DNA from: a virus
Lineage: Duplodnaviria; Heunggongvirae; Uroviricota; Caudoviricetes
IMG/VR virus record: IMGVR_UViG_2721755497_000002
Span: 1 to 46,410 of that record
DNA length: 46,410 nt
Strand: one strand, 5' to 3'
Shown here piece after piece: positions 982 to 24,105 of the stretch (its first letter is position 1; each line of letters begins with the position of its first letter). Position numbers and translations under genes: made by a program. Below the pieces are notes generated by a model. The model was not told where the DNA came from. It was given only the letters and a program-made list of their open reading frames with translations, and did no database searches.

Positions 982-1063
982 AAATTCAATCACTTACACA
1001 TCATTAAGTCAGTGACAAAAATCACACTTGGAATTACTTGGAATATTTTCTTGGAATATTTTC
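982..1063. repeat. attL candidate: tRNA 3' flank with tandem direct repeats (CTTGGAAT x3, including TTGGAATATTTTC x2) overlapping the int 3' end; possible arm-type Int binding sites
   Basis: Direct repeats visible at about 1027-1063, immediately between the tRNA and the integrase stop codon. Confidence 0.3.
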
Positions 1064-2059: not shown

Positions 2060-2262
2060 CAGATCGCACCAAAATTCGGCTCTACCTCGCGTGGTGGTAA
2101 AGTTTTATTGCAGGTAAATAGATCCCGGCTGACAATCGGTTTGCCACTACGATTGGTATAGAACGGAAGCCCGTTTTCCATTAACCATTTTCGCTGGTGG
2201 CTTGCATATTTGCAGCCCGTTAATATTAGCAATTCATCTTCGGTTAAAAATAAGCTGCTCAT
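2059..2262 (-). CDS. xis: Excisionase-like protein
   Basis: 67-aa ORF immediately upstream of int with overlapping stop/start; size and position typical of lambdoid Xis. Confidence 0.55.
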   Translation of the reverse strand: MSSLFLTEDELLILTGCKYASHQRKWLMENGLPFYTNRSGKPIVSRDLFTCNKTLPPREVEPNFGAI

Positions 2263-2320
2263 AGCTATATCTCATAACCGCCGCTAACTATATACGGTTA
2301 GCGGCAATTAGGGTTGAACA

Positions 2321-4762
2321 TTAAAAATCAGCCTGACTCGGGATCAGTTTTTGCCAGATAGCTGAAACGTATTTTGCCTGGTAACGAGCGTCATCAAGTG
2401 CATTATGGCGCTCACCTTCGAATGGGATAGCAGTTCTGGCATCGAAGTCTATGGCTTTCCCCAGCTCAACGATTGTGCGTACATCGCGATCGTTGCAGTA
2501 GCGCCATGGGCAGGGGATACCCTGTCGTTCGTATGAACGGCGTAAAATCACGTTGTCGAAGTTGGCCCCATTACCCCAGACCTGAACAAAAAATTCACCG
2601 GAGTTTTCGTCGATAAATTCCCGCAATTGCAGTAGTGCATCATCTAACGGGATTTCATCGGTCATAATGGCAGACTGCGCTTCACGTGATTGCTTCAGCC
2701 ACCATTTAATGACGTCACGATCAATGACTCCGCCAGCAGTATCCAGATCGATGGTCTTGCTAAATTCCGGTCCCATATCTCCGGTTTGTGGATCGAAAAA
2801 TATTGCGCCTATTGAGATAATCGGGGCATCGGGATTTATTCCCATGGTTTCAAGGTCGATCATCAGATGAATCCCCGCTCTGCTGGTGGATGTGAGATTA
2901 TGATGACCGTTCGCCTTAATTAAGGGATCTGACGCCTCGCCAGTTTCACTATCGCTGGCATGATGCTGATTGCCGCCAGTGTTCTCCTTGTGCTGATGCG
3001 CAGTGCCTTCCATTTCCTCCGGATCATTTTCCTGAACTTCAGGCTGATTCTCTCCATCGAATATTTCCTGGTATGTTGCGTCACCCATCACCGCACCACA
3101 ATCAGGGCAGTTGCCGCCACCGCTATGACCGCAGGCGGTGCAGATCTTTTCCGGTTCCTGTTGCACTACTGGTTCAGGTTGTTTCGTTTCTGGCTCGTTT
3201 TGTTGCGTATTTGGGCTGTTTTGTTCCGCTTTCTGGTCGTTCTGTTCCGTTTCTTGCTGGTTCTGGTTCACAGAATCGCGAGTCTGGATCCCCTTGACCC
3301 ATTTCGGATCATTAGGGTCGCTAATCCCCTCAACAAATTCACCACGCGATACAGCAAGTAACTTATCGGCGTCAGGCTGGCTGATATTGGCTGCCTGCAT
3401 AATTTTGTTTACTTCGTCAGCGGTGACTTTTACCTGGTTAGCGGAACTCACCTGCGACTGAGCATCCAGCGACTGCGCGTTCTGGCAATGTTCAGTTGTA
3501 TCCGGTTCCATTGTTTCAGTTGTTGCCTGTTCACCTGCCATTGCGTCAGATGGTTGTGGTTTTTCTTCCTCTGTTTCACGTTCAGTAACCACCTCGCGGT
3601 TAATTTCTTCCAGGATATCTTTTTCCGGCGTATGCCGGGCAGCTGTGAGAGTTTCCTTGCTGGGGTTCTCGTGATCAGTTTCCGTCAAATAGGCGTTGAT
3701 ATACCCCTGAAGGCGTCCCGGGTAGTGATAAAATTCAGGGTGTGCGCTTCGGATAAGTGCAAAAATAGCGGCGCGGGAATAGTCCAGAATACCCGGGGTT
3801 GCACGAAGTGCTGAGGACCATTCTTTGAACGGACTTTCTTTTTTCAGGACTACTTCTTTTGCGCGACGATAAACGCTGCCCGGAATTTCATAAATATTAA
3901 AATCCATCGGAAGTGTGGCTGCTGCAATCTCCACATCCAGTGTGTCGAGGGTGTGTACTAAATTCGGATTGCGATCGGTTTTGTTCCCACCGCCAGCATT
4001 AGCACCGGAAGCCGTGCGGGTGATGCGTGAAACACGATTTCCTTTCATCCACTCTTTTGTCAGCAGACCCCGATCAATGTAGTCAGCGTCCAGGTATGCT
4101 TCGAAAAAAGCAGTTATTAGTCCCAGGTCTGAATTACCAGGATTAGGGAAAACTTTGTCAGTGTCACGAACCAGTTTGTGGAGGTCGCGAATCTCCAGCG
4201 AGTCGAGCAGACTGGTTTTATGCGAAATAGCCAGGGCAGTAACAGCCGGTAGTTCTTCAGCCCGTGCAATGTGTAATGCCTGGAGTTCGTCGCGTGAAAC
4301 GTGCGTTACTGGTTTTTCGCTGCCGTGTTGAGCAAGCCAACGAATGGGCAGTTCCTGACCGGAGACAGGCAGAAGCATGCTCTCCTCAATCTCAGTCATG
4401 TCTTCGCCGTTGATGTTGGTATTGTCAGTGCTGGCTGGTTTGTCCTGAACAGAGGGGGAAGGGCCGATAAATGTCATTGTGATGCCATCTTTCCCGCCTT
4501 TTTCATAGCGGTTGCAGAATTCAGTATCAAACACGCCTTCTGGCGGAAGGTCGTCAACAACGGGCAAATTGACGCGGACGGGTTTTTTAAAGTCGTCTTC
4601 ATCATAATCGTTGTCATCCATTGCGGTAATGCAGCGGGAGATTGCAACAGATAATTTTTTTGCTGTAGTCCAGTAAAAACCACCTTTAATTCCCAGGCGT
4701 TTTCTTACTTTGTCATTTTTTGCTTCGCAATATAGTGCAAATTCTTCTTTATCAGTGCTCAT
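2321..4762 (-). CDS. Large phage exonuclease: long acidic N-terminal region with a C4 zinc ribbon and a C-terminal DnaQ-like (DEDDh) 3'-5' exonuclease domain; the type often annotated exodeoxyribonuclease VIII-like in lambdoid prophages
   Basis: 813-aa ORF; C-terminal motifs IDLETMG (Exo I), WGNGANFD (Exo II), HNALDDARY (Exo III); zinc ribbon CTACGHSGGGNCPDCG. Confidence 0.75.
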   Translation of the reverse strand: MSTDKEEFALYCEAKNDKVRKRLGIKGGFYWTTAKKLSVAISRCITAMDDNDYDEDDFKKPVRVNLPVVDDLPPEGVFDTEFCNRYEKGGKDGITMTFIGPSPSVQDKPASTDNTNINGEDMTEIEESMLLPVSGQELPIRWLAQHGSEKPVTHVSRDELQALHIARAEELPAVTALAISHKTSLLDSLEIRDLHKLVRDTDKVFPNPGNSDLGLITAFFEAYLDADYIDRGLLTKEWMKGNRVSRITRTASGANAGGGNKTDRNPNLVHTLDTLDVEIAAATLPMDFNIYEIPGSVYRRAKEVVLKKESPFKEWSSALRATPGILDYSRAAIFALIRSAHPEFYHYPGRLQGYINAYLTETDHENPSKETLTAARHTPEKDILEEINREVVTERETEEEKPQPSDAMAGEQATTETMEPDTTEHCQNAQSLDAQSQVSSANQVKVTADEVNKIMQAANISQPDADKLLAVSRGEFVEGISDPNDPKWVKGIQTRDSVNQNQQETEQNDQKAEQNSPNTQQNEPETKQPEPVVQQEPEKICTACGHSGGGNCPDCGAVMGDATYQEIFDGENQPEVQENDPEEMEGTAHQHKENTGGNQHHASDSETGEASDPLIKANGHHNLTSTSRAGIHLMIDLETMGINPDAPIISIGAIFFDPQTGDMGPEFSKTIDLDTAGGVIDRDVIKWWLKQSREAQSAIMTDEIPLDDALLQLREFIDENSGEFFVQVWGNGANFDNVILRRSYERQGIPCPWRYCNDRDVRTIVELGKAIDFDARTAIPFEGERHNALDDARYQAKYVSAIWQKLIPSQADF

Positions 4763-6333: not shown

Positions 6334-6622
6334 GCTGACCTCATTTCCCCTTAACGCCGGGGTAGCGGAACAAAAACCTGCTGCATAGTTATTAAAGTTG
6401 AACCCTGCCGTCATGTTCTTACGCCTCGGGCTGGCTACTTAACCCCTGACCACTGCCTGGTAACTCGAAGTATTGCCCGGCGTTCTGTGGGGCGGGGTGG
6501 GTTGGTAGATTCAGTTTAATAAACATTAAACTGAAGTCAAGTAAAAACTAAATCATGGGGCGTAACAAACACAACGCTTTTGATAAAGTCGTTGCGGTTG
6601 TTATTTCTATTGGTAGTGAAAG

Positions 6623-6901
6623 TTAGGGAAACTGGCGTCTTGCGTGGATCACGTTTACTACTTCAACGCTTGATGTTGTTACGCGGTATAGAATTATATA
6701 GTTAGGGTGGGCCACAATCTCACGCAAGCCAGGTACTCTGTCGCTTGGTGGGTATAAATACGGATGTTCGGATAATGGCAGCACACAACCCCTTAATCGC
6801 TGCCATAAGCGTTCAGCCGCATCTACGTCGAAACGAGCAATATAACTAGTTATATCATCTAGGTCGGTATCTGCGCTTTCAAGCCATAACACGGGTAACA
6901 T
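6623..6901 (-). CDS. ParE/RelE-family type II toxin (candidate)
   Basis: About 92 aa from internal Met (MLPVLWLESADTDLDDITSYIARF...IHARRQFP); size and composition typical of ParE/RelE toxins; start is 1 nt after the stop of the upstream small gene. Confidence 0.65.
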   Translation of the reverse strand: MLPVLWLESADTDLDDITSYIARFDVDAAERLWQRLRGCVLPLSEHPYLYPPSDRVPGLREIVAHPNYIILYRVTTSSVEVVNVIHARRQFP

Positions 6902-6902
6902 T

Positions 6903-7094
6903 TTACTGCTTGCTCCGTTCCTTCCGCATTTTAGCAAAGCGTTCTGCCATTCTGCGCTCAACTTCGTCATGGGGAATTGCTGGGCGCGGATCTGCAAGGC
7001 TTGTTGCTACTTTCGCACGCAGCCATTCGTTGTAACTGTTTTCTTGTTCAATGGTTTCAAATTCAGAAACCATTGGTGAAAGGGCTCTATTCAT
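6903..7094 (-). CDS. Cognate antitoxin candidate (small DNA-binding protein)
   Basis: 63 aa from internal Met (MNRALSPMVSEFETIEQENSYNEWLRAK...); GGAGG Shine-Dalgarno 4 nt upstream; immediately upstream of and coupled to the toxin gene. Confidence 0.55.
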   Translation of the reverse strand: MNRALSPMVSEFETIEQENSYNEWLRAKVATSLADPRPAIPHDEVERRMAERFAKMRKERSKQ

Positions 7095-7114
7095 GTTTCC
7101 TCCGGTTTTATAAC

Positions 7115-7486
7115 TCAGGCGCGGCGGCATTTTTGCGCCGCAATCCATCTCGCTATGAGATCTTCCATTGATTCTTTTTTCTGCTTTAACTCGCTGATTA
7201 TCTGGCGTTGCTCATCCTCAGGGAAGGCTGAAAAAATCTGCAATAATTCCAGTTGATTAGACGTTAACCCTGCATGTGGTGGAGAAACCTCAGGTTGTTC
7301 TGCGTATTCCACATCTAGATACCCATCCGGCATCCCGTATGTTTGCTCTATTCTTCTGGCAGCCTTTTCTCCAAACGAGGCTCTCCCACTCATTAGTTGA
7401 GATAGGTAGCTCTTCTCTTTGGGTGGCAGAGTTTTATCTTTAAACCACTCCTTGAGACGTAAACGGCGAATTTCTTTTTTTTGCAT
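7115..7486 (-). CDS. Phage repressor, cI/DicA-like (HTH XRE family)
   Basis: 123 aa from internal Met MQKKEIRRLRLKEWF...; HTH region SYLSQLMSGRASFGEKAARRIEQ; divergent from the cro-like gene across an operator-rich spacer. Confidence 0.8.
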   Translation of the reverse strand: MQKKEIRRLRLKEWFKDKTLPPKEKSYLSQLMSGRASFGEKAARRIEQTYGMPDGYLDVEYAEQPEVSPPHAGLTSNQLELLQIFSAFPEDEQRQIISELKQKKESMEDLIARWIAAQKCRRA

Positions 7487-7582
7487 GTGGTAATTATCTT
7501 TAGTAATCACTAAACAAGCAAATACTTGACTTAATGGTTTATTAAACACTAAACTCGCAAAAAACACTAAACCGAGGAAGGT
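7487..7582. promoter_or_regulatory. Immunity-region divergent promoter/operator spacer with three ACTAAAC-containing direct repeats and a rightward TTGACT-N18-TAAACT promoter
   Basis: Repeats atcACTAAACaag, aacACTAAACtcg, aacACTAAACcga; sigma70-like -35/-10 upstream of the cro-like gene. Confidence 0.45.
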
Positions 7583-7885
7583 ATGACATTAAAAGAGTTT
7601 ATTAAATCATTGAGGGTTGGTGATGCTAAGAAATTCGCGGCCAGACTTGGTGTATCGCCATCTTACTTATCGCAAATGGCGTCTGGACGAGCAGCTATAT
7701 CTCCAACCCGCGCCCTTATGATCGAATCTGCTACGGAAGGCCAAGTAAGTAGGGCGGAGCTACGACCCCATGATTGGGAACTTATTTGGCCTGAGTATGC
7801 GAGCGGCATTCGTTTGGGGCAAACGCATGTAGTTCATGCTGAAGGTGATTGTAGTGCATGCTTATCTGATGGAGTTGATTCATGA
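7583..7885 (+). CDS. Cro-like HTH regulator (YdaS family)
   Basis: 100-aa ORF; HTH motif AARLGVSPSYLSQMASGRAAIS; first gene of the rightward early operon. Confidence 0.7.
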   Translation: MTLKEFIKSLRVGDAKKFAARLGVSPSYLSQMASGRAAISPTRALMIESATEGQVSRAELRPHDWELIWPEYASGIRLGQTHVVHAEGDCSACLSDGVDS

Positions 7886-8307
7886 AAATCAAGCATGAGC
7901 ATATTCGCATGGCGATGAATGCCTGGGCGCGTCCGGATGGTGAAAAAGTTCCGGTAGCCGAGATAACCAGGGTTTATTTCGAGCTGGGCATGACGTTTCC
8001 TGAGCTGTATGACGACAGCCATCCGGAAGCCCTGGCCCGTAATACCCAGAAAATTTTCCGCTGGGTGGAGAAAGACACCCCTGATGCGGTTGAAAAAATT
8101 CAGGCGTTACTGCCAGCGATCGAAAAGGCAATGCCGCCTTTGCTGGTGGCCAGAATGCGTAGTCACAGCTCAGCCTATTTCAGGGAGCTGCTGGAGACAC
8201 GAGAACGGCTGGTGAGAGACGCTGATGATTTTATCGCAGTGGCAATCGCCGGTTTCAATCAGATGAACCGTGGTGGCCCTGCAGGAAATATTGTGGCTGT
8301 GCATTGA
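7882..8307 (+). CDS. YdaT-family protein (CII-like functional analogue)
   Basis: 141-aa ORF overlapping the cro-like stop; size and position match Rac YdaT. Confidence 0.6.
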   Translation: MKIKHEHIRMAMNAWARPDGEKVPVAEITRVYFELGMTFPELYDDSHPEALARNTQKIFRWVEKDTPDAVEKIQALLPAIEKAMPPLLVARMRSHSSAYFRELLETRERLVRDADDFIAVAIAGFNQMNRGGPAGNIVAVH

Positions 8308-15747: not shown

Positions 15748-16125
15748 ATGACTGAACGCATAGAATTTGTTTTGCCTTACCCGCCGACGGTGAATACCTA
15801 CTGGCGACGTCATGGCAATACGTATTTCATCTCGGAGGCCGGAAAGCGTTATCGCCGTGATGTGGCGCTAATTGTTCGCCAGCAGCGGCTGAAATTAAAC
15901 CTGTCCGGAAGGCTGGCAATAAAAATTACTGCAGAGCCGCCGGATAAGCGCCGTCGGGACCTGGACAATATCCTGAAAGCACCGCTGGATGCACTGACGC
16001 ATGCGGGGCTTCTCATAGACGACGAGCAGTTTGATGAAATCAATATTGTGCGCGGTCAGCTCGTTCCTGGTGGGCGACTGGGCGTGAAGATTTGCGAAAT
16101 CAGAGGTGATGGTAATGGGGCGTGA
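15748..16125 (+). CDS. rusA: RusA Holliday junction resolvase
   Basis: 125 aa; motifs PPTVNTYWR and RRRDLDN...LDAL...AG match the RusA family. Confidence 0.85.
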   Translation: MTERIEFVLPYPPTVNTYWRRHGNTYFISEAGKRYRRDVALIVRQQRLKLNLSGRLAIKITAEPPDKRRRDLDNILKAPLDALTHAGLLIDDEQFDEINIVRGQLVPGGRLGVKICEIRGDGNGA

Positions 16126-16465
16126 TATGTATGAGGTTTTAGATCGCTGGGGGGCATGGGCTGCAGCAGAAAATAGCGGTGTCGATTGGCAACCGATAGC
16201 AGCGGGCTTCAAGGGGCTTTTGCCACATGGCAAAAAGTCACGTCTCCAGTGTGATGATGATGAAGGCATCATGATAGACGGTTGTGTGGCTCGGTTGCGA
16301 AAGTATAAACCAGAGGAATATGAGCTGCTCATAGCTCACTTTGTTATTGGTGTTTCTCTACGCTCAATCGCGAAGAAACGCAGGTGCTCAGATGGAACTA
16401 TAAGAAAGGAGCTGCAAACTGCATTAGGCTTTATTGATGGATGTATATGCTTGATTCTATCATAA
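16115..16465 (+). CDS. Late antiterminator Q (QuuD / phage 82 Q family)
   Basis: ORF 16106..16465; LDRWGAWAA...IAAGFKGL...RLQCDDDEG...DGCVARL resembles QuuD; likely start ATG 16115 after GAGGTGA. Confidence 0.75.
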   Translation: MGRDMYEVLDRWGAWAAAENSGVDWQPIAAGFKGLLPHGKKSRLQCDDDEGIMIDGCVARLRKYKPEEYELLIAHFVIGVSLRSIAKKRRCSDGTIRKELQTALGFIDGCICLILS

Positions 16466-16478
16466 GTTATGACTGTTA

Positions 16479-16865
16479 CTACTCGTTTGCTTGAGCTTTC
16501 GATTCGGCGTCAGATAAAGCATCAATACGAATATTTATGTTTTTTAATAGCTTATTGTCTAGATCGATAAGACATTGGTTGTAGTGCGCAATTTGGTCTG
16601 GTGTTAGGTTAGGGTTGGCCAGGCAGTTCGTGATGAATTTTCTGGCCGTTTTTATTTCCCTTTTCATTCTTACATCATTAAGCGTAGGCAAACCTATGTA
16701 AGCGATAAGAAGAATTACCACATGAGATAAGCCGACAGCAGCTCCAGGCGCCAATGATTTGAAGAAGGCTAATTGAGGAAGCCAGTCAAAAAGGAAATTC
16801 AATCCCGCAGTGATAAGGGTGGTAAACCATGCCTGCATTGCCAGGTAGGATTTAGTGTTCGCCAT
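16479..16865 (-). CDS. Uncharacterised membrane protein (cargo gene 3 of 3), two predicted TM helices plus helical C-terminus
   Basis: 128-aa ORF; hydrophobic segments WFTTLITAGLNFLF and VGLSHVVILLIAYIGL; start abuts stop of upstream gene; convergent with Q, 13-bp gap. Confidence 0.6.
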   Translation of the reverse strand: MANTKSYLAMQAWFTTLITAGLNFLFDWLPQLAFFKSLAPGAAVGLSHVVILLIAYIGLPTLNDVRMKREIKTARKFITNCLANPNLTPDQIAHYNQCLIDLDNKLLKNINIRIDALSDAESKAQANE

Positions 16866-17111
16866 TCACCTTCCTGCACTTGCTTCGTTGCGAGTTTTGA
16901 GTTCGCGTAGCAGTAGCGCCAACTCTTCTGCGTCATTTTCGTTTCTAACGCTGACTTTCCTTTTAGCGGTTCTGCCTTCAGGATCGGTGTAGGTTAGTTC
17001 AATATACGCATTCGGCTTTACCCAAACCAAGAACCTAAGCACAGCATATCTGACCGTCGCTGCGACAGCCATGAATACAGTGATGTAAAGCATAATGCTT
17101 AGGATTGACAT
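16866..17111 (-). CDS. Uncharacterised small membrane protein (cargo gene 2 of 3), one N-terminal TM helix
   Basis: 81-aa ORF; ILSIMLYITVFMAVAATV hydrophobic segment; translationally coupled to neighbours. Confidence 0.6.
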   Translation of the reverse strand: MSILSIMLYITVFMAVAATVRYAVLRFLVWVKPNAYIELTYTDPEGRTAKRKVSVRNENDAEELALLLRELKTRNEASAGR

Positions 17112-17114
17112 GAT

Positions 17115-18026
17115 TTAAAGTAGTTTCCTATCTGCCGCCGCTCTGTGGCGTATAACCTTAGTAATACTATAGCGTGGTTTAGACAGCGCGCCATTTGTTT
17201 CTTTTGTTGTTTCTGTCAGTTCTACAACAAAAAGATCACCCTTACAGAATGCTGCTTGGTTGTGTTCAACCCGTTCAAGAAAAGCCTCATCTTTCATAGA
17301 TGCGCTAACTTCTTCGCCATTTGGCAGGATGATATCCCAGCTTTTGCCTTGCTTGAATCGAACATTAGCAAAATGTACATTAGCTTGGCGTGTCGTTACG
17401 TGCGTTTTCTCGACAAAGGTGGATTTTGCAGTTTTAAAACTTACTGCTTCAGCTTGCGTCACCCTGACTACCTTATGCTTCTGCTGTGAAACTGAGAACG
17501 TGGATGGTTTTTCAGTCTGCAGGGGTTTATAGATTAATTTATCCAGTTCTTTTCGGATGATTGGACTGGTTATTAATTTTTGAATGTCGTTACTGCATTT
17601 AACCTTCTCACCATCCACTTCGATTTCTGCTGTATCTTTTTGTTCATCGACGACAATGGAGCTGATTTTACGCCCTTTGAGCCATTCGATTATCCCGAGT
17701 ACGCCACCTGCGGCAACTCCACCACCTGCAACGAGGCCAAGGGCGTTAATAGTTTTTATGCTCCCCATCACAGCAACAAGCAAAGTAAATGAACCTTCTT
17801 TTGTTGCCTTGATGTTGACTTTCGGCTCTGCTGTTTCGCCATTAATTATTTTTTCGGCGTGTTCAATCAGGGCACTAAGAGAGGTTAAGGCTTCGCCTAA
17901 TGTTTTCGCGTCGATCTGATTATCTGCGTATGCCTCTCCACCGTAGGCAATTTCGATTTCTGTTATTGGCATGTTTTCGAGTTGCTGCGTCATCAAAAGC
18001 ATCCTTTGCGCAAGAGAAATAGCCAC
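17115..18026 (-). CDS. Uncharacterised protein (cargo gene 1 of 3) with central Gly/Ala-rich hydrophobic segment
   Basis: 303-aa ORF (track start is GTG; probable true start ATG at 17993 after AAGGA, giving 292 aa); hydrophobic LLVAVMGSIKTINALGLVAGGGVAAGGVLGII; no recognisable catalytic motif. Confidence 0.6.
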   Translation of the reverse strand: MAISLAQRMLLMTQQLENMPITEIEIAYGGEAYADNQIDAKTLGEALTSLSALIEHAEKIINGETAEPKVNIKATKEGSFTLLVAVMGSIKTINALGLVAGGGVAAGGVLGIIEWLKGRKISSIVVDEQKDTAEIEVDGEKVKCSNDIQKLITSPIIRKELDKLIYKPLQTEKPSTFSVSQQKHKVVRVTQAEAVSFKTAKSTFVEKTHVTTRQANVHFANVRFKQGKSWDIILPNGEEVSASMKDEAFLERVEHNQAAFCKGDLFVVELTETTKETNGALSKPRYSITKVIRHRAAADRKLL

Positions 18027-18115
18027 AGGATACAGATAATTATGAAAAAATCACTAACGCGTACGCAAAAACTATCTTAATCTGTTAAGAGTGGTCGCTT
18101 CGCCACACAACTTAA

Positions 18116-18140
18116 ACCCGCATCAAGCGGTTTTTTTTGT
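18116..18140 (+). terminator. Weak intrinsic terminator (CCGCatcaaGCGG + T8) upstream of the tRNA cluster; possible tR'
   Basis: Short GC stem followed by eight T residues on the plus strand. Confidence 0.35.
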
Positions 18141-18243
18141 GCCACTTATCTCGGATAGACATGGTGAATGCGCTGGTGGAGGAGATAAGGGTGATTTTTG
18201 AATGCTTGCAACATTGATTTCGTAACGTTATTATCCTGCGCCC

Positions 18244-18319
18244 GGCCCTTTAGCTCAGTGGTGAGAGCGAGCGACTCATAATCGCCAGGTCGCTGGTTCA
18301 AATCCAGCAAGGGCCACCA
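18244..18319 (+). tRNA. tRNA with CAU anticodon (Met or lysidine-dependent Ile2; ileZ-like phage tRNA)
   Basis: 76 nt GGCCCTTTAGCTCAGTGGTGAGAGC...ACTCATAATCG...GGTTCAAATCCAGCAAGGGCCACCA; canonical cloverleaf. Confidence 0.8.
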
Positions 18320-18326
18320 TCTCATA

Positions 18327-18403
18327 CCGCCATTAGCTCATCGGGACAGAGCGCCAGCCTTCGAAGCTGGCGGCGCGGGGTTCGGGTCCTCGATGGCGGT
18401 CCA
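18327..18403 (+). tRNA. tRNA-Arg, anticodon UCG (argN-like phage tRNA)
   Basis: 77 nt; acceptor CCGCCAT/ATGGCGG, anticodon loop CTTCGAA, T-arm CGGGG-TTCGGGT-CCTCG, CCA end. Confidence 0.75.
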
Positions 18404-18416
18404 TTATCTGCACCAT

Positions 18417-18490
18417 GCGGTCATCGTATAATGGCTATTGCATCAGCCTTCCTGGCTGATTATGCGGGGCAATTCCCGCTGACCGCTCCA
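18417..18490 (+). tRNA. tRNA-like element, argO-like but degenerate (non-canonical anticodon loop CTTCCTG and shortened T-loop GCAATT)
   Basis: Acceptor GCGGTCA/TGACCGC with CCA end; anticodon and T-loops deviate from consensus; may be a pseudo-tRNA. Confidence 0.4.
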
Positions 18491-18675
18491 TAGTGGATTA
18501 TGGGTACTGTATGTTAAGCATTTTTCTTCGTTACCCTTCATCGGTAAAAAAGCGTACAACAACTATTTATGCTGCCATTAGCGATGATAGTATAGTTACT
18601 GGTTCTTTCGTAGTGTGTTTATTTGTTTGCTATATTTTTATCGATAATTGACATTCTTCAGATGGGGATGAATAA

Positions 18676-19104
18676 ATGTATTGCCGTGGTTTGCCAGTTC
18701 TTGTTTTGATATTCGCCTGCCTGGCAGCAGGCTGCACAAAAGATGTATCAACAAATTATCATGATAGTGCGCCATATCACGCAGGTGAATTAACAAAGGT
18801 TAAGAATGTTAATCCATCTGAAAGTACTGCTGATGTTAGTGAAGACATTCGTCATTATGCCGGTCAAATCAAAAAAGCCATTGAAGAACAGTTCAGGGAA
18901 CCGGGTAAGTATTCCGGGAAAGTGTGTTCACTGAGAATGAATATGGCTCCGAATGGTCTTCTGTTGCAGGTTAAAAGAGAAGGTGGAGACCCCGATTTAT
19001 GTCGTGAAGCGATGAATGCGGTGAAGCATGCTGATATACCAGCACCGCCGTCTCCGGAAGTATATAAAGTATTTCACAATGGAGTGCTGGATTTTAAACC
19101 GTGA
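18676..19104 (+). CDS. Lipoprotein carrying a TolA C-terminal (domain III)-like domain
   Basis: 142 aa; signal peptide with lipobox LAAGC; C-terminal 85 aa (YAGQIKKAIEEQF...GKVCSLRMNMAPNGLLLQVKREGGDPDLC...IPAPPSPEVYKVFHNGVLDFKP) closely parallels E. coli TolA domain III as recalled. Confidence 0.7.
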   Translation: MYCRGLPVLVLIFACLAAGCTKDVSTNYHDSAPYHAGELTKVKNVNPSESTADVSEDIRHYAGQIKKAIEEQFREPGKYSGKVCSLRMNMAPNGLLLQVKREGGDPDLCREAMNAVKHADIPAPPSPEVYKVFHNGVLDFKP

Positions 19105-19304
19105 TTCTACATCTTTGCAGTAAACAATAATCATAATTGCATGTTTTTTCTGTGGTGGGGCATTTGGCTTCTGTTGCCTGCGATGTATTGTGGACCTGGT
19201 ATCAGCCTGCAGAAAATGCACACAGGTGTGAAGTGTTAAATTCCTCACAACTCAGAACGCAGAATGTTGTCCTGCTTGCGGGGAATTTGTTAAAAGAGTA
19301 CAGC

Positions 19305-19423
19305 ATGGTGAATCCCCCTGAGCGGAGGGGCATAATGACAGATGTTTGGTCGTGTTATCGTATAGGCAAGTTGCGGATTCTGTCTGGTCATTGCAGAATT
19401 CACCGGGAGGCACCCGGCACCAT
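19305..19423. repeat. Repeat unit copy 1 (about 119 bp): ATGGTGAATCCCCCTGAGCGGAGGGGC ... CACCGGGAGGCACCCGGCACCAT with two GC-rich hairpins
   Basis: Termini shared with copy 2 and mutually reverse-complementary (ATGGTG / CACCAT). Confidence 0.45.
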
Positions 19424-19558
19424 GTATTTTCAATATGTTATTGATCATTCTCTTTTTCGGAATACTCTGGTTATGTTTTCCTGTAACTGATAATTAAATC
19501 ACATTTTGTGTAACTGCATATTGTCTGAACGGGATAAGTTTCAGTATCTTCTGAATGT

Positions 19559-19678
19559 ATGGCGAATCCCCCTGTGCGGCGGGGCGTACTGATTTAAGTA
19601 GTCATCCAAGAATGCAGCTGAATGAAAACGCGCTCCATATTAATCAGTGGTGGAGCACCGGGAGGCACCCGGCGCCAT
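19559..19678. repeat. Repeat unit copy 2 (about 120 bp): ATGGCGAATCCCCCTGTGCGGCGGGGC ... CACCGGGAGGCACCCGGCGCCAT
   Basis: Same terminal hairpin modules as copy 1, divergent interior. Confidence 0.45.
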
Positions 19679-19707
19679 ACCGATGATGAAAGTAAATGCG
19701 TCCATCC

Positions 19708-19732
19708 GCCCCTCTCCGGAGGGGCTTTTTTA
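19708..19732 (+). terminator. Strong rho-independent terminator (GCCCCTCtccgGAGGGGC + TTTTTT) upstream of nanS-p
   Basis: 7-bp GC stem, 4-nt loop, T-tract. Confidence 0.6.
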
Positions 19733-19913
19733 TGGGCAAAAAAAGCCCGCTACGAATGGTAACGGGCTGCACAAAATAACAAAATGTGAAGTATTCTAAT
19801 CAGCCGCTGAATAATACCCGACAGTAATTAATCTGTGCAACGGTGCTTTTTCCCGCCTTGCAGGCACCGACTCTCTCATTTGATTTAACGCATTATCCCG
19901 TCCGGGAGGATTC

Positions 19914-21857
19914 ATGACATTTAAATATTATGATGTGGTTTCGGCCAGAACAACTGATGAATTAAAGCGGAAACTGAACGAAAAAATCCGTGAAGGATGG
20001 CAGCCTTATGGAACAATATCTGTTTCATCTGTGAGTGGTACTGAAGACATATATCATCAGCCAGTTGCTGCTGAGGGGGAGGTGAGTACGCCGGTGATAC
20101 GTCCTGATGCCGGTGATGATTCATCTGTGGCCGTCTCCGGATCGCCTGATTATTACTACGTGGTGGTACTGGCGGGGCAGTCAAATGGCATGGCCTATGG
20201 TGAAGGGTTTCCGTTACCGGATTCATTTGACCGCCCGGACCCACGGATTAAGCAACTGGCACGCCGCAGCACGGTCACGCCAGGTGGTACGCCGTGTAAA
20301 TACAATGACATCATTCCGGCAGACCACTGCCTGCATGATGTGCAGGACATGAGCGGGATAAACCACCCAAAAGCTGACCTGAACAAGGGGCAGTATGGTT
20401 GTGTGAGTCAGGGGCTGCATATTGCCAAAAAACTGCTGCCTTATATCCCGCAGAATGCCGGGATACTTCTGGTGCCCTGTTGCCGTGGCGGGTCAGCATT
20501 CACCACCGGGCCGGACGGTTCATTCAGTGAGGCCAGCGGTGCTTCCGCTGATTCTTCACGCTGGGGAGTCGGTAAACCTCTGTATCAGGACCTGGTAAGC
20601 CGCACCAAAGTCGCGCTGGCGAAGAACCCGAAAAACAAACTTCTGGCTGTGGTCTGGATGCAGGGAGAGGCAGACCTTGCATCGGGAAGTCAGCAGCATA
20701 ATGGTTTATTCACTGCCATGGTTCAGCAGTTCAGAGCCGACCTGTCTCCGCTTGCTGCGCAGTGCGTGAGTGGAAATGCTGGCACGGTACCGTGGATTTG
20801 TGGTGATACCACGTATTACTGGAAAAACGCTGGCACCGATAAATATGAGGCGGTATACGGTGGCTACAAAGGCAAGGAAACTCAGAATATTTTCTTTGTA
20901 CCGTTCCTGACGGATGAGAATGGACAGAACACGCCAACGAATGCTCCGACGGAAGATCCGGATATTGTGGCTGTCGGGTATTACGGTGCGGCATCCCGTA
21001 CCCAGGGCAGTTTTGTCTCGACACAGCGTGACAGCCATTTCAGTTCATGGGCACGCAGGGGCATCATTTCTGACCGTCTGGCCTCCTCTATTCTGCTCCA
21101 TGCAGGGCGCACGGCTGAACTGCTGGGCGGGCAGGCCGTGACACCACCGGATGAGAAGCCATCACCTGACACTCCATCAACATCACCGGGTGAAACTACC
21201 GGGATGACAACACTGTTTGCATACAGGGCCAGCGATTCGGAAGGACAACTGACTCCACAGGGCTGGGGGGCTGGCGGAGGTAGTGCCGCTGTTGTGGATG
21301 ATGCCGGAGCCAGTGGAGGTAAGGCGATGAAGCTTACCAAAGCGACGGGAAAATCCTCCTGGTACCTGGAACATGATGCCGGTAATGGTGCCGACCTGCT
21401 GGGCAAAGGCGGCCTTGTCAGTTGTCGTTTTAAACTTGATGGCGCGCTTACGGCTAATCAGTACGCACTGGCGCTGTACTGGCCGGTTTCTGCCCTGCCA
21501 CAAGGGGTTACCCTGGAAGGTAATGCTGGTCATAACCTGCTGGCATCTTTTTACGTTCAGAGCGATGCGACAGACCTTAACGTGATGTACCACAAGGGCG
21601 ATACGGCGCAAAACATGAAACTGGGGTCATTCGGTGCATTTGACAACGAGTGGCATACGTTGGGCTTCCGTTTCGCCGGTAACAACAGTATTGAGGTGAC
21701 GCCGGTCATTGATGGTCAGGACGGGACGCCGTTCATGCTGTCGCAGTTACCTGTCGGTTCTTTTGCGGCAGACAAGTTGCGCGTGACCGATATTACCAGT
21801 GCAGCAACGTATCCGGTGCTGATTGACAGCATAGTGGTGGAAGTGAATAACGCGTAA
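19914..21857 (+). CDS. nanS: NanS-p-type sialate O-acetylesterase (DUF1737 N-domain + SGNH/SASA esterase domain)
   Basis: 647 aa; N-terminus MTFKYYDVVSARTTDELKRKLNEKIREGWQPYGTISVSS (DUF1737-like); GQSN motif (VLAGQSNGMAYGEG); position between tRNAs and lysis genes as in EHEC prophages. Confidence 0.8.
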   Translation: MTFKYYDVVSARTTDELKRKLNEKIREGWQPYGTISVSSVSGTEDIYHQPVAAEGEVSTPVIRPDAGDDSSVAVSGSPDYYYVVVLAGQSNGMAYGEGFPLPDSFDRPDPRIKQLARRSTVTPGGTPCKYNDIIPADHCLHDVQDMSGINHPKADLNKGQYGCVSQGLHIAKKLLPYIPQNAGILLVPCCRGGSAFTTGPDGSFSEASGASADSSRWGVGKPLYQDLVSRTKVALAKNPKNKLLAVVWMQGEADLASGSQQHNGLFTAMVQQFRADLSPLAAQCVSGNAGTVPWICGDTTYYWKNAGTDKYEAVYGGYKGKETQNIFFVPFLTDENGQNTPTNAPTEDPDIVAVGYYGAASRTQGSFVSTQRDSHFSSWARRGIISDRLASSILLHAGRTAELLGGQAVTPPDEKPSPDTPSTSPGETTGMTTLFAYRASDSEGQLTPQGWGAGGGSAAVVDDAGASGGKAMKLTKATGKSSWYLEHDAGNGADLLGKGGLVSCRFKLDGALTANQYALALYWPVSALPQGVTLEGNAGHNLLASFYVQSDATDLNVMYHKGDTAQNMKLGSFGAFDNEWHTLGFRFAGNNSIEVTPVIDGQDGTPFMLSQLPVGSFAADKLRVTDITSAATYPVLIDSIVVEVNNA

Positions 21858-21988
21858 GCAGGACAAAAAAATGCCGCCGGGAAAGGGAAAACAAGGAAAC
21901 CGGCGGCAAAGGTCGTCACATCTAAAGCAAAAATGCAGGACGCCTTTTTAACCAACAGGTATTAACGATGTCAACACCATGTCGATAA

Positions 21989-22177
21989 TTGGGAGGGATA
22001 ATGACATTTTTACAGCTTATTTTATTGTATTTCTGTACGGCGGTGTGTGCACTGTATCTGGTGAGTGGTGGGTACAAAATTATACGCAACTACATCCGTA
22101 AAAAGATTGATGCCATGGCGGCTGAAAAAATCAGTGCCGGTCAGTCAGCAGAGCCAAAGTCCACGTCCCTCCCGTAA
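21989..22177 (+). CDS. Hypothetical small membrane protein
   Basis: 62-aa ORF with hydrophobic N-terminus FLQLILLYFCTAVCALYLV. Confidence 0.35.
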   Translation: MGGIMTFLQLILLYFCTAVCALYLVSGGYKIIRNYIRKKIDAMAAEKISAGQSAEPKSTSLP

Positions 22178-22202
22178 TCACATCTCACAGCGAGAAAAAA
22201 CC

Positions 22203-22508
22203 ATGACAGAAATGAAAAAACTGGTCACTGCTGATGCAGTGAAGTCAGCGCTGCGCACTGAAGAAGTCCGCGGGACGCTGAAAGCATCTATCCGTAAAAC
22301 GTTTGAGGCTCAGATTGATGCGGATGTGGAAGCGATTCTGGATGAGCTTATCGGACCTGCTGAGGGGGCATCTGCGCCACAGGTAGGGGATGGTGAGAAT
22401 ACAGCAGACTCTCCGGTGGAAAACAGCAGCGAACAACCTGAGGCACAACCCGCTGCTGGAGAACAACCAGCTGATGTACTGCAGCCTGAACCAGCGACCA
22501 TGCTGTGA
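22203..22508 (+). CDS. Hypothetical acidic protein upstream of holin
   Basis: Internal Met ([14 protein letters not shown]...) of ORF 22065..22508; about 101 aa. Confidence 0.45.
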
Positions 22509-22585
22509 TACATGACGCACAGGCCACCAGCATATCGCGGTGGTCTTTTATTATCGTGCGCTTCCGGTTAACGGGAGGCGGGGAT

Positions 22586-22801
22586 ATGTACCAGATGGAA
22601 AAAATCACAACAGGTGTGTCATACACCACGTCTGCGGTGGGGACGGGATACTGGTTTCTGCAGTTGCTGGACAGGGTATCCCCGTCTCAGTGGGCGGCAA
22701 TAGGCGTGCTGGGGAGTCTGCTGTTTGGTCTGCTGACGTACCTGACCAACCTGTATTTTAAAATCAGAGAGGACCGGCGCAAGGCGGCGCGGGGAGAATG
22801 A
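22586..22801 (+). CDS. Holin, phage 21 S21-like pinholin with dual-start motif
   Basis: 71 aa [26 protein letters not shown]...[22 protein letters not shown] resembles S21; GGGAGG Shine-Dalgarno; two Met within first four codons. Confidence 0.8.
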
Positions 22802-22805
22802 ACTG

Positions 22806-23339
22806 GTGAGTAAAAAACTCCGCTACGGTTTATCTGCGATCGTTCTGGCGCTGATTGCCACAGGTGCTTCTGCGCCTGAAATCCTTGACCAGTTTCTGGA
22901 TGAAAAGGAAGGTAACCACACCACGGCATACCGTGATGGCGCGGGTATCTGGACTGTCTGCCGGGGAGCCACTCGGGTGGATGGCAGACCTGTAGTTCCC
23001 GGTATGAAGCTGACGAAGGAAAAATGCGCTCAGGTTAATGCCATTGAACGGGATAAGGCACTGGCATGGGTGGAGAAAAATATCAGAGTGCCACTGACCG
23101 AACCGCAGAAAGCGGGGATAGCGTCATTCTGCCCGTACAACATTGGTCCCGGTAAGTGTTTTCCGTCGACGTTTTATAAACGAATTAATGCAGGTGATCG
23201 AAAAGGTGCCTGTGAGGCGATTCGCTGGTGGATTAAGGATGGTGGCAGAGACTGCCGTATTCGCTCAAACAACTGCTACGGTCAGGTGTCCCGTCGTGAC
23301 CAGGAGAGCGCGCTGGCGTGCTGGGGAATCGACAGATAA
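22806..23339 (+). CDS. SAR endolysin (T4 lysozyme-like muramidase with N-terminal signal-anchor-release domain)
   Basis: 177 aa; GTG start; N-terminal Gly/Ala-rich hydrophobic SAR segment LSAIVLALIATGASA; resembles phage 21 R21. Confidence 0.85.
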   Translation: MSKKLRYGLSAIVLALIATGASAPEILDQFLDEKEGNHTTAYRDGAGIWTVCRGATRVDGRPVVPGMKLTKEKCAQVNAIERDKALAWVEKNIRVPLTEPQKAGIASFCPYNIGPGKCFPSTFYKRINAGDRKGACEAIRWWIKDGGRDCRIRSNNCYGQVSRRDQESALACWGIDR

Positions 23340-23430
23340 GCAGAATATTTTGCTGAAAAATGCCGTTTGCTCACGCGGGTGGATAACACGATATTCTGCG
23401 AACTGGCAAAAGGTAAGTGAATAAAAGTAA

Positions 23431-23462
23431 AAACCCCGTTTGTTGGCTGCAAGCGGGGTTTT
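23431..23462 (+). terminator. Hairpin AAACCCCG...CGGGGTTT with T-tract inside the lysis cassette (candidate terminator/attenuator)
   Basis: GC stem with long loop followed by TTTTG. Confidence 0.35.
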
Positions 23463-23498
23463 GTGTTTCCTGACTCCGGAAAAGTCAAAGGAGAAAGT

Positions 23499-23636
23499 GT
23501 GTTTGATTTTAGCAAACTGATTCGGGAGATTCGAGTGATGGCTGAAAAATTATCCACCTGGAAGTTCATCCTTATCTGGCTGGTGTTTGTGATTATGGCC
23601 TCCGGTTATTTCATCGGTCAGATACGCTGGTGGTGA
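23499..23636 (+). CDS. Possible small membrane protein between endolysin and Rz (45 aa, [45 protein letters not shown])
   Basis: GTG start 5 nt after AGGAG; stop 1 nt before Rz ATG; one predicted TM helix; not in ORF track. Confidence 0.35.
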
Positions 23637-23637
23637 A

Positions 23638-24105
23638 ATGAACCGCGTTCTGTGTGTGATCATCATTGCCCTGCTGGTGGCCTGTGGTGTGCTGTGGGTG
23701 GCAACAGACTATTACCGCGATAATGCCATCACCTACAAGGCGCAGCGCGATAAAAAAGCCAGGGAGCTGCGGCTGGCAAACGCAACCATTACTGACATGC
23801 AGCAGCGTCAGCGTGATGTTGCTGCACTCGATGCAAAATACACAAAGGAGTTAGCCGATGCGAGAGCTGAAAATGAAACTCTGCGCGTTGATGTTGCCGC
23901 TGGTCGTAAGCGCCTGCGGGTCAACGCCACCTGTGTGTCCGCCACAGACAAAAACACCAGAACCGCCAGCGTGGATAATGCAGCCCGCCCCAGACTGGCA
24001 GACGCCGCTGAACGGAATTATTTCACTCTCAGCGACCGGCTGATGACGATGCAGAAGCAGCTGGAAGGGGCGCAGGAATATATCCGCGCTCAGTGCCTGA
24101 AATAA
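23638..24105 (+). CDS. Rz i-spanin
   Basis: 155 aa; N-terminal TM helix, coiled-coil-rich periplasmic domain; Rz1 embedded in +1 frame. Confidence 0.8.
23873..24043 (+). CDS. Rz1 o-spanin lipoprotein (embedded in Rz)
   Basis: Internal Met of ORF 23858..24043: [32 protein letters not shown]... lipobox VVSAC, proline-rich. Confidence 0.7.

What the first reader, a model, noticed from the sequence alone, without database searches (positions are those of the whole stretch)
19914..21857. nanS-p sialate O-acetylesterase without an adjacent toxin
The 647-aa protein has the DUF1737 N-domain and GQSN esterase motif of NanS-p, which in EHEC prophages sits just downstream of stx and lets the host use O-acetylated sialic acids from mucin. 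Here the gene is present but the stx slot upstream holds the TolA-like lipoprotein and repeat elements. A strong terminator at 19708-19732 directly precedes it, so it may have its own promoter in the about 180-bp AT-rich leader.
Basis: partly seen in the sequence, partly recalled or inferred. Interest (0 to 1): 0.4.

Follow-up and report, generated by a model that had tools for sequence, protein, structure and literature searches.

The report
Ordinary prophage sialic-acid esterase gene (nanS-p)
The gene is an intact, somewhat divergent copy of the known phage-borne sialic-acid de-acetylating enzyme NanS-p in a toxin-free prophage of a mouse gut E. coli, which is the usual situation for this gene, and the "terminator" in front of it is the end of a known small-RNA gene.

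Summary
ORF 19914-21857 (+) encodes a 647-aa protein with three domains: DUF1737, a SASA esterase domain (GQSN at residues 88-91) and DUF6645. It matches solved NanS (3pt5, E 2.8e-117) and the NanS-p C-terminal domain (6yp6, E 3.5e-99).

The window is 100% identical to a lambdoid prophage of mouse E. coli strain M3.

- **Lacking stx is the norm.** NanS-p C-domain DNA occurs at 2963 places in 1052 complete E. coli genomes, against 1103 stx places. Non-Stx prophage nanS-p genes are already published.
- **The "repeat elements" are two tandem STnc100 sRNA genes** (Rfam, 119 and 98.5 bits).
- **The "strong terminator" is the 3' end of the second STnc100 copy.**
- **The ~180-bp leader carries a candidate small RNA on the opposite strand**, at the position AsxR/AgvB hold in other phages. 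It has no convincing + strand promoter.

Stx2 phage Min27 has the same STnc100 / opposite-strand sRNA / nanS-p layout. Published work on Stx2a-positive strains shows nanS-p rising on prophage induction like stx2a, so Q-dependent late transcription is the best model here. This step is inferred.

The allele is 66% identical to Stx-phage NanS-p. Its DUF1737 variant occurs in only 12 genomes, all from mice. Verdict: a new member of a known kind, low interest.

The parts
16106..16465 (+). Q antiterminator gene (119 aa)
   Evidence: Pfam Phage_antitermQ, E 3.8e-45. RefSeq annotates it as an antiterminator Q family protein.
16479..18026 (-). Three opposite-strand ORFs inserted between Q and the late-promoter segment. 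Not part of the nanS-p unit, but late transcription depends on Q acting across this insertion.
   Evidence: The 303-aa ORF matches PADLOC candidate PDC-S42, E 3.3e-53. None of the 80 related loci has homologous DNA here.
18045..18143 (+). Inferred late promoter / Q-utilisation / tR' segment, with a hairpin plus U-run at about 18113-18139
   Evidence: It is homologous (79-86%) to the sequence that follows Q directly in L017 and L051. It is present in all four loci with a Q of this family. The hairpin folds at -10.7 kcal/mol. The promoter function is inferred from position only.
18244..18490 (+). Three tRNA genes (Ile2/CAT, Arg, Gly)
   Evidence: ARAGORN, Rfam tRNA hits and RefSeq annotation.
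18676..19104 (+). TolA C-terminal-domain lipoprotein, occupying the slot that holds stx in Stx phages
   Evidence: PF06519, E 1.8e-23. The position compares directly with Min27.
19274..19478 (+). STnc100 sRNA gene, copy 1 (terminator stem degenerate)
   Evidence: Rfam RF02076, 118.9 bits against a gathering score of 47, E 2.4e-26.
19529..19737 (+). STnc100 sRNA gene, copy 2.
   Evidence: Rfam RF02076, 98.5 bits, E 3.9e-21; model positions 178-206 are the hairpin. Terminator scan. Fold -20.5 kcal/mol.
19737..19839 (-). Candidate ~65-nt sRNA with its promoter, convergent with STnc100, at the position of AsxR/AgvB
   Evidence: Promoter-like TGCACA-17-TATTAT at 19839..19811 and a terminator at 19768..19744. 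Fold z-score -3.6. 96-97% identical in L003 and L044, and 76-82% in about 12 other loci. No Rfam family match.
19904..19909 (+). Ribosome-binding site GGGAGG of nanS-p
   Evidence: ATTATCCCG(T/G)CCGGGAGGATTCATG is conserved with Min27.
19914..21857 (+). nanS-p (647 aa). DUF1737 is at nt 19920-20069, the NanS-like esterase at nt 20142-21095 and the lectin-like C-terminal domain at nt 21201-21851.
22001..22508 (+). DUF1378 and DUF826 small genes that follow nanS-p, as in Stx phages
   Evidence: Pfam E 5e-31 and 1.3e-18. Small ORFs occupy the same positions in Min27.
22586..24105 (+). Lysis cassette: class II holin, lysozyme and Rz-type lysis protein
   Evidence: RefSeq annotation. The holin is 92-100% identical in nearly all lambdoid loci (79% in L005).

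Best explanation
What it is (shown): ORF 19914-21857 is an intact prophage-type sialate O-acetylesterase of the NanS-p family. It has three domains:
- an N-terminal DUF1737 domain;
- an SGNH/SASA esterase domain homologous to chromosomal NanS, with the GQSN serine (Ser90) and the SHFSS histidine (His375) present;
- a lectin-like DUF6645 C-terminal domain.

Where it sits (shown): the standard cargo region of the late operon of a lambdoid prophage in mouse commensal E. coli M3. The order is Q, an inserted opposite-strand cassette, the late-promoter/tR' segment, three tRNAs, the cargo slot (here a TolA-domain lipoprotein instead of stx), two STnc100 sRNA genes facing a candidate opposite-strand sRNA, nanS-p, DUF1378, DUF826 and holin-lysozyme-Rz.

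How it most likely works (inferred):
- The gene is transcribed as part of the Q-antiterminated late transcript. That transcript reads through the STnc100 terminator, as must happen in Stx phages with the same layout.
- The protein has no signal peptide, so it leaves the cell at phage-induced lysis. It may remain attached to capsids through DUF1737.
- It removes 9-O-acetyl groups from sialic acids of gut mucins, making them usable by sialidases and by E. coli sialic-acid uptake.
For: Identity:
- Pfam finds DUF1737, SASA and DUF6645.
- PDB 3pt5 NanS matches at E 2.8e-117 over residues 77-394, with GQSN, CCRGGSAF, WMQGE and SHFSS conserved. PDB 6yp6 (NanS-p C-terminal domain) matches at E 3.5e-99.
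- It is 66% identical over its full length to Min27 ORF46. tblastn finds 341 phage records with at least 80% coverage.

Context:
- The window is 100% identical to the E. coli M3 chromosome, where the neighbours are annotated.
- Min27 has the same gene order.
- STnc100 sits directly upstream in the window, in Min27 and in nearly all lambdoid loci, with or without stx.
- The ribosome-binding site and start are conserved.

Expression model:
- A segment homologous to the region just after Q lies at 18045-18143.
- No + strand promoter match was found in the leader.
- nanS-p expression rises on induction, like stx2a, in Stx2a-positive strains (PMC10462455), and it is among the most induced late genes (PMC8065619).

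Export: the highest Kyte-Doolittle 15-residue average in the first 75 residues is 0.25, so there is no signal peptide.

Function: all tested NanS-p alleles of EDL933 and O104:H4, including those of non-Stx prophages, were active esterases.

Virion link: in phi24B the DUF1737 domain of gp84 decorates the capsid (bioRxiv 10.64898/2026.04.10.717836).
Against: - No expression or activity data exist for this allele. It is only 66% identical to the characterised enzymes.
- Two STnc100 units, one with a strong terminator, lie between the inferred late promoter and the gene.
- A 1.6-kb cassette separates Q from its inferred target site.
- The late promoter is placed by homology of position, not by a consensus match.
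- The integrase is frameshifted. The early region carries dicB, ydfA-D and relBE, so whether this prophage can be induced is unknown.
- nanCMS, which includes chromosomal nanS, is present in about 93% of the E. coli isolates in one collection. Strain M3 also has three places with NanS-p C-domain DNA. The nutritional contribution of this copy may therefore be redundant.
Confidence: 0.75

Rival explanations
1. One reading: nanS-p is insulated from upstream transcription by the terminator at 19708-19732. It is expressed in the lysogen from its own promoter in the ~180-bp leader.
For: A stable terminator (-20.5 kcal/mol) directly precedes the leader. The leader is somewhat AT-richer than the window, 45.9% against 51.6% GC. 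The reviews read here report that EHEC lysogens can grow on Neu5,9Ac2 through their NanS-p enzymes. If that growth occurs without deliberate induction, some basal expression exists, but the primary papers were not held and this was not checked.
Against: - The terminator belongs to STnc100. The same layout exists in Stx2 phage Min27, and in Stx2a-positive strains nanS-p rises on induction like stx2a.
- No + strand sigma-70-like site reaches 9 of 12 matches in the leader. The best reach 8 of 12 and lie inside the opposite-strand sRNA unit.
- The leader is poorly conserved between alleles except for the ribosome-binding site.
Confidence: 0.12
2. The protein is mainly a virion component that serves the phage. 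DUF1737 anchors it on the capsid, and the esterase and lectin domains bind or modify mucus or O-acetylated surface glycans. Any host nutritional benefit is secondary. This overlaps with the best explanation rather than excluding it.
For: - In phi24B, gp84 is an abundant virion protein whose DUF1737 domain forms hexamers on capsid hexons.
- Among 80 related loci the DUF1737 variant follows the head-gene type. Meanwhile the same esterase body (at least 90% identical) and the same upstream stx2 are shared across head types.
- The same esterase body is fused to a different N-terminal domain in Mu-like prophages.
Against: - The phi24B capsid is a T=9 podovirus head. This prophage has a ClpP-protease/capsid fusion and a long tail.
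- The Tyr42 'tooth' is not conserved at the aligned position, where GYGAEF is replaced by GTEDIY.
- The window's DUF1737 variant also occurs, truncated, in KingRac-type prophages with lambda-like heads.
- One variant (N0) occurs with three head types.
- The association could reflect shared ancestry of the phage backbones.
Confidence: 0.25
3. The gene is a silent passenger in a decaying prophage and contributes nothing.
For: The integrase is frameshifted. In 10 of the 12 genomes that carry this N-terminal variant the gene is a 579-nt truncated pseudogene. Two other places in the same strain carry NanS-p C-domain DNA.
Against: The 647-codon frame is fully open, with all conserved esterase motifs. 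The Q gene, lysis cassette and head and tail genes are annotated as intact.
Confidence: 0.07

Closest known systems
NanS-p of Stx2a phages (933W z1466; phi24B vb_24B_21/gp84; Min27 ORF46)
   Same: - Same three-domain architecture, 66% identity over the full length, and a conserved ribosome-binding site and start.
- Same position, after the tRNAs, the cargo slot and STnc100, and before DUF1378, DUF826 and the holin and lysozyme genes.
- The C-terminal domain matches 6yp6 at E 3.5e-99.
   Different: - No stx upstream; a TolA-domain lipoprotein takes its place.
- STnc100 is duplicated.
- The opposite-strand sRNA is neither AsxR nor AgvB.
- The DUF1737 loop differs and Tyr42 is not conserved.
- The head is a siphovirus type with a ClpP-capsid fusion, not the 933W type.
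Chromosomal NanS (YjhS), PDB 3pt5
   Same: The catalytic domain is homologous (E 2.8e-117 over residues 77-394). The GQSN serine and SHFSS histidine are conserved. Ser and His were confirmed as catalytic by mutagenesis (PMC10017367).
   Different: The solved NanS chain (337 residues) aligns only to residues 77-394, so NanS has no counterpart of the DUF1737 and DUF6645 domains. NanS is encoded in the nanCMS operon. From general knowledge it is exported by a signal peptide, whereas this protein has none.
NanS-p alleles of non-Stx prophages in EHEC O157:H7 EDL933 and O104:H4 (Saile et al. 2016, 2018, as cited in PMC10462455 and PMC8065619)
   Same: These are nanS-p genes in lambdoid prophages without stx. 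All tested alleles were active esterases and supported growth on Neu5,9Ac2.
   Different: The host here is a mouse commensal, not a pathogen. The allele is divergent and untested.
Truncated nanS-p in KingRac-type Rac-locus prophages of mouse E. coli (Frazao et al. 2019, PMC6731689)
   Same: The leader plus DUF1737-coding DNA is 99% identical. A TolA-like gene lies upstream in the same position, and the DNA from the tRNAs through that region matches the window.
   Different: There the gene is cut to 579 nt and annotated as a pseudogene. The head genes are lambda-like, with a gpD-type decoration protein and a gpE-type capsid protein.
SASA-DUF6645 esterases of Mu-like prophages (e.g. L019 9677-11731)
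   Same: The esterase and C-terminal domains are 90% identical to residues 75-647. This is the closest enzyme body found.
   Different: The N-terminus is an unannotated ~113-aa domain instead of DUF1737. The gene lies between a Gin-type invertase and a Mom-like gene, next to baseplate and tail-fibre genes.

Membership tests
NanS-p (prophage sialate O-acetylesterase) | SASA/SGNH esterase domain homologous to NanS, with the GQSN serine and the catalytic histidine | tested here: met
   PF03629, E 5.5e-13. 3pt5, E 2.8e-117, with motifs conserved. Ser90 and His375 located.
NanS-p (prophage sialate O-acetylesterase) | N-terminal DUF1737 domain | tested here: met
   PF08410, residues 3-52, E 7.8e-7, 29.3 bits against a cut-off of 24.
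NanS-p (prophage sialate O-acetylesterase) | C-terminal lectin-like domain (DUF6645; fold of PDB 6yp6) | tested here: met
   PF20350, E 1.8e-67. 6yp6, E 3.5e-99 over residues 430-646.
NanS-p (prophage sialate O-acetylesterase) | Location in the late region of a lambdoid prophage, between Q and the lysis cassette | tested here: met
   RefSeq annotation of the identical M3 locus. Same order as Min27.
NanS-p (prophage sialate O-acetylesterase) | Esterase activity on Neu5,9Ac2 and O-acetylated mucin glycans | not testable with these tools
   Needs an enzyme assay. Inferred from conserved catalytic motifs and from the activity of all tested alleles.
NanS-p (prophage sialate O-acetylesterase) | Induction-dependent (Q-dependent) expression | not testable with these tools
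   Inferred from synteny and from published data on Stx2a-positive strains.
STnc100 sRNA (Rfam RF02076), for the 'repeat elements' and the terminator | Covariance-model score above the gathering threshold (47 bits) over the full model | tested here: met
   118.9 bits (19274-19478) and 98.5 bits (19529-19737), each spanning model positions 1-206.
AsxR/AgvB anti-sRNAs (Rfam RF02703 / RF02702), for the opposite-strand candidate | Position convergent with the STnc100-type sRNA, in the cargo site downstream of the late promoter | tested here: met
   Same position as AsxR in Min27 and AgvB in L060. Tree et al. describe these as convergent sRNA pairs.
AsxR/AgvB anti-sRNAs (Rfam RF02703 / RF02702), for the opposite-strand candidate | Match to the family covariance model, including the conserved 3' region | tested here: not met
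   A scan of 19690-19915 at E up to 10 gave no AsxR or AgvB hit. blastn with Min27 AsxR gave no hit in the window.
DUF1737 capsid-decoration protein, as shown for phi24B gp84 | Anchoring loop with the Tyr42 'tooth', and a 933W-type T=9 capsid as partner | tested here: not met
   The aligned loop is GTEDIY instead of GYGAEF. The head genes are of the ClpP-capsid fusion type, and no 933W-type terminase was found.
DUF1737 capsid-decoration protein, as shown for phi24B gp84 | Physical presence on virions | not testable with these tools
   Needs virion proteomics or cryo-EM.
TolA C-terminal domain proteins, for the gene in the stx slot | PF06519 match above the cut-off | tested here: met
   E 1.8e-23, 83 bits against a cut-off of 25, residues 51-140.

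The most novel reading that the evidence does not exclude
DUF1737 may be an exchangeable capsid anchor matched to the phage head type. On this reading NanS-p is a capsid-displayed, mucus-modifying enzyme of lambdoid phages in general, whether or not they carry stx. The window's rare DUF1737 variant would then display the esterase on a siphovirus capsid of the ClpP-capsid fusion type.

Evidence that allows this:
- The same esterase body and the same upstream stx2 are shared by loci with three different head types.
- The ~700-nt island holding the sRNA pair, the leader and DUF1737 differs between those loci and follows the head type.

A smaller possibility is that the opposite-strand RNA at 19737-19804 is a third allele class of the AsxR/AgvB anti-sRNAs.
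Probability: 0.2. Interest if true: 0.5.

Novelty: new member of a known kind. Interest (0 to 1): 0.17.

Why it matters
It matters little as a discovery. NanS-p esterases in prophages without stx are already known and have been assayed.

The check is useful mainly as a correction:
- The intergenic "repeats" and "terminator" upstream of nanS-p are a conserved pair of facing small-RNA genes that travels with nanS-p whether or not stx is present. Promoter or insulation arguments based on that terminator are therefore unsafe.
- The allele may have some use for people studying mouse-gut E. coli. This leader and N-terminal variant was seen only in mouse isolates, and M1 and M3 carry its only intact copies.
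- The loci gathered here also give a first, weak computational test of the recent claim that DUF1737 is a capsid-binding domain.

Tried and rejected
- NCBIfam gave no family for the protein. PADLOC gave none for NanS-p or for the TolA-like protein.
- An independent promoter was looked for in two ways. The standard scan and a relaxed 8-of-12 scan found nothing convincing on the + strand of the leader.
- The opposite-strand candidate could not be assigned to AsxR, AgvB or any other Rfam family. The best hit was RybB at 21 bits against a threshold of 40, driven by the terminator hairpin.
- A strict one-to-one match between DUF1737 variant and head type was considered and rejected:
  - variant N0 occurs with lambda-like, HK97-like and (once) window-like heads;
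  - the window's own variant also occurs in KingRac-type prophages with lambda-like heads.
- The 113-aa N-terminal domain of the Mu-like esterases has no Pfam, PHROGs or PDB match.
- The primary papers of Saile 2016, Feuerbaum 2018, Rangarajan 2011 and Rangel 2016 are not held. Statements about them come from papers that cite them.
- Two scripts failed because locus files are bundled several records to a file. This was resolved.
- Whether strain M3 has chromosomal nanS was not determined.
Full report
**1. Observation**

The ORF is exactly as described: 19914..21857 on the + strand, ATG start, 647 aa.
- Pfam finds DUF1737 (res 3-52), SASA (res 83-278) and DUF6645 (res 496-613, E 1.8e-67).
- Two solved structures match by sequence: E. 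coli NanS/YjhS (3pt5, E 2.8e-117, res 77-394) and the C-terminal domain of phi24B NanS-p (6yp6, E 3.5e-99, res 430-646).
- The esterase motifs GQSN (88-91), CCRGGSAF, WMQGE and SHFSS (374-378) are conserved against NanS. Ser and His of the SGNH fold were confirmed as catalytic in NanS (PMC10017367).
- The first 75 residues have no hydrophobic stretch, so there is no signal peptide.
- The TolA-like gene (PF06519, E 1.8e-23, lipoprotein-type N-terminus), the repeats and the terminator hairpin are all present.
- The leader is 181 nt and only mildly AT-rich, 45.9% against 51.6% GC.

**2. Source and context**

The stretch 18000-22600 is 100% identical to the chromosome of E. coli strain M3, a mouse isolate. 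RefSeq annotates a lambdoid prophage beside tRNA-Ser and mtfA, with a frameshifted integrase. Its late region runs in this order:
- a Q antiterminator;
- three opposite-strand ORFs;
- three tRNAs;
- "tolA";
- the 647-aa gene, annotated only as a "DUF6645 domain-containing protein";
- DUF1378 and DUF826;
- holin, lysozyme and a lysis protein;
- terminase, portal, a ClpP-protease/major-capsid fusion, and lambda-like tail genes.

Stx2 phage Min27 has the same order, with stx2AB where the TolA-like gene sits here. The two NanS-p proteins are 66% identical over their full length. The ribosome-binding site and start are conserved.

**3. The "repeat elements" and the "terminator"**

Rfam identifies two tandem copies of the STnc100 sRNA (RF02076). 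They lie at 19274-19478 (118.9 bits) and 19529-19737 (98.5 bits), against a gathering score of 47. The hairpin at 19708-19725 plus its U-run corresponds to model positions 178-206 of copy 2, so it is that sRNA's own terminator. Copy 1 has a degenerate terminator stem.

In Min27 a single STnc100 lies 75 nt after stx2B. It is followed on the opposite strand by AsxR, and then by nanS-p. Published work places STnc100 (also called EcOnc27) at the same spot (PMC12370729; PMC12711010). Tree et al. describe "convergent sRNA pairs 3' of PR' in the moron insertion site" (PMC4104026).

Among 80 IMG/VR loci with NanS-p relatives, STnc100 ends about 170-210 nt before the nanS-p start in most lambdoid loci, with or without stx. 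Two loci carry four tandem copies. [quoted passage not shown]

**4. The leader**

On the opposite strand the leader carries a promoter-like site (TGCACA-17-TATTAT, 19839..19811) and a terminator (19768..19744 plus a U-run). Together they predict an RNA of about 65 nt with a stable 3' hairpin (z-score -3.6). This is the position held by AsxR in Min27 and by AgvB in L060.

The window's version matches no Rfam family. It recurs at 96-97% identity in L003 and L044, and at 76-82% in about a dozen loci, some of them next to stx.

On the + strand there is no sigma-70-like site at 9 of 12 matches or better. The best reach 8 of 12 and lie inside this opposite-strand unit.

**5. How nanS-p is probably expressed (inferred)**

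The segment 18045-18143 is 79-86% identical to the sequence that follows Q directly in L017 and L051. It occurs in every locus that has a Q of this family. It ends in a hairpin plus U-run, like a tR' terminator. I take it to be the late promoter, Q-utilisation and tR' region. On that reading the 1.6-kb opposite-strand cassette (16479-18026) is an insertion between Q and its target.

In Stx2a-positive strains nanS-p expression rises on induction, as stx2a does, despite an STnc100 terminator lying between stx and nanS-p in Stx2 phages such as Min27. The simplest model is that Q-modified polymerase reads through the terminator here too. Lacking a signal peptide, the enzyme would be released by the downstream lysis genes.

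Caveats: the integrase is frameshifted and the early region is of the dicB/ydf type, so inducibility is unknown.

**6. Is "without an adjacent toxin" unusual? No.**

- DNA of the NanS-p-specific C-terminal domain is found at 2963 places in 1052 of 5426 complete E. coli genomes, with a median of 3 per genome.
- stx DNA is found at 1103 places in 759 genomes. At least 63% of nanS-p copies therefore cannot be next to stx.
- Of the 68 sequences with at least 1.9 kb upstream (66 IMG/VR loci plus the window and Min27), 51 have no stx and 17 do.
- The literature already states that nanS-p occurs in non-Stx prophages and that those alleles are active (PMC10462455; PMC8065619).

**7. What is particular to this allele**

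- The best phage-database match is 66.5% identical.
- The esterase and C-terminal domains are 90% identical to esterases of Mu-like prophages. Those carry a different, unannotated N-terminal domain and sit between a Gin-type invertase and a Mom-like gene.
- The leader plus DUF1737-coding DNA (19738-20150) occurs in only 12 of 5426 genomes, all from mice.
- In 10 of those genomes it is a 579-nt truncated pseudogene in a Rac-locus prophage with lambda-like head genes, preceded by the same TolA-like gene. This is the prophage called KingRac by Frazao et al.. Only M1 and M3 have the intact gene.

**8. Side test of the capsid-anchor idea**

A 2026 preprint shows that in phi24B the DUF1737 domain of the NanS-p homologue gp84 forms hexamers on capsid hexons, with Tyr42 as the anchor.

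I clustered the N-terminal, esterase and C-terminal segments of the 80 loci and typed their head genes. One esterase/C-terminal cluster (at least 90% identity) is joined to three DUF1737 variants:
- variant N2 with window-type heads (9 loci in this esterase cluster, plus L046 with a different C-terminal cluster);
- variant N3 with 933W-type heads (3 loci);
- variant N0 with lambda-like or HK97-like heads (5 loci in this esterase cluster; 11 of the 12 N0 loci with a typed head overall).

In L046, L051 and L079 the stx2 region is at least 97% identical and the gene from +387 onward is mostly 93% identical or better. An exception is a divergent patch at about +1187 to +1487 in L046. The stretch from -400 to +290 diverges and follows the head type.

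This fits a head-matched anchor, but shared backbone ancestry could also explain it. The window's own variant lacks the Tyr at the aligned position and occurs with two head types. I rate this reading as possible, not supported.

**9. Verdict**

This is a correctly spotted, intact nanS-p gene in its ordinary place in a non-Stx lambdoid prophage. It is a new, untested allele of a known family. The absence of stx is normal. The terminator is the end of an STnc100 sRNA gene. The own-promoter inference is unsupported.

Noticed in passing
window 19274-19737; L003 8680-9795: STnc100 is tandemly duplicated upstream of nanS-p in the window. Copy 1 has lost its terminator stem. L003 and L044 carry four tandem copies, so amplification of this sRNA gene recurs.
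   Followed up: yes
window 19737-19839, minus strand: A candidate ~65-nt sRNA with its own promoter and terminator, convergent with STnc100, sits at the locus that holds AsxR or AgvB in other prophages. It matches no Rfam family. It is conserved at 96-97% in two loci and 76-82% in about a dozen. It may be a third allele class of the anti-sRNAs.
   Followed up: partly
window 16479-18026 (minus strand); L052 about 6420-7930; L066 about 720-3690: The gap between the Q gene and the inferred late-promoter segment is a variable insertion slot.
- Window: a three-ORF cassette whose 303-aa protein matches PADLOC candidate PDC-S42 (E 3.3e-53).
- L066: a type II methyltransferase plus an NsnA/PD-T4-2-like protein.
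- L052: two unannotated ORFs.
- L017 and L051: no insert.
It looks like a defence-gene hotspot.
   Followed up: partly
window 18676-19104: A 142-aa predicted lipoprotein consisting of a TolA C-terminal domain occupies the stx slot. It also occurs in phage mEp460 and in KingRac-type prophages. It could act as a periplasmic decoy for colicins or filamentous phages that use TolA; this was not tested.
   Followed up: partly
window 19738-20150: The leader plus DUF1737-coding DNA is found in only 12 of 5426 complete E. coli genomes. All 12 are mouse isolates from several laboratories. In 10 of them the gene is truncated to 579 nt, inside the Rac-locus 'KingRac' prophage studied in mouse-gut evolution experiments.
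   Followed up: partly
L019 9677-11731 (also L007-L016 and L020-L026): The closest relatives of the esterase and C-terminal domains (90% identity) lie mostly in Mu-like prophages, between a Gin-type invertase and a Mom-like gene. Two of these loci (L020, L021) have a lambdoid holin nearby. Their N-terminus is a ~113-aa domain with no Pfam, PHROGs or PDB match, in place of DUF1737.
   Followed up: partly
L003-L082 (N-terminal 60 codons of the nanS-p homologues against downstream head genes): DUF1737 sequence variants follow the type of terminase, portal and capsid genes. The adjoining esterase body and the upstream stx2 are shared across head types. This is consistent with the recent report that DUF1737 binds capsids, but the match is not one-to-one.
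   Followed up: partly
window 1009-2059, minus strand: The prophage integrase next to tRNA-Ser is annotated as frameshifted, so excision may be defective. The early region carries dicB, ydfA-D, relBE and hokD.
   Followed up: no
window 18091-18201: RefSeq annotates a 36-aa 'antiterminator' CDS here. It overlaps the inferred tR' hairpin and has no Pfam match, so it is probably not a real gene.
   Followed up: no
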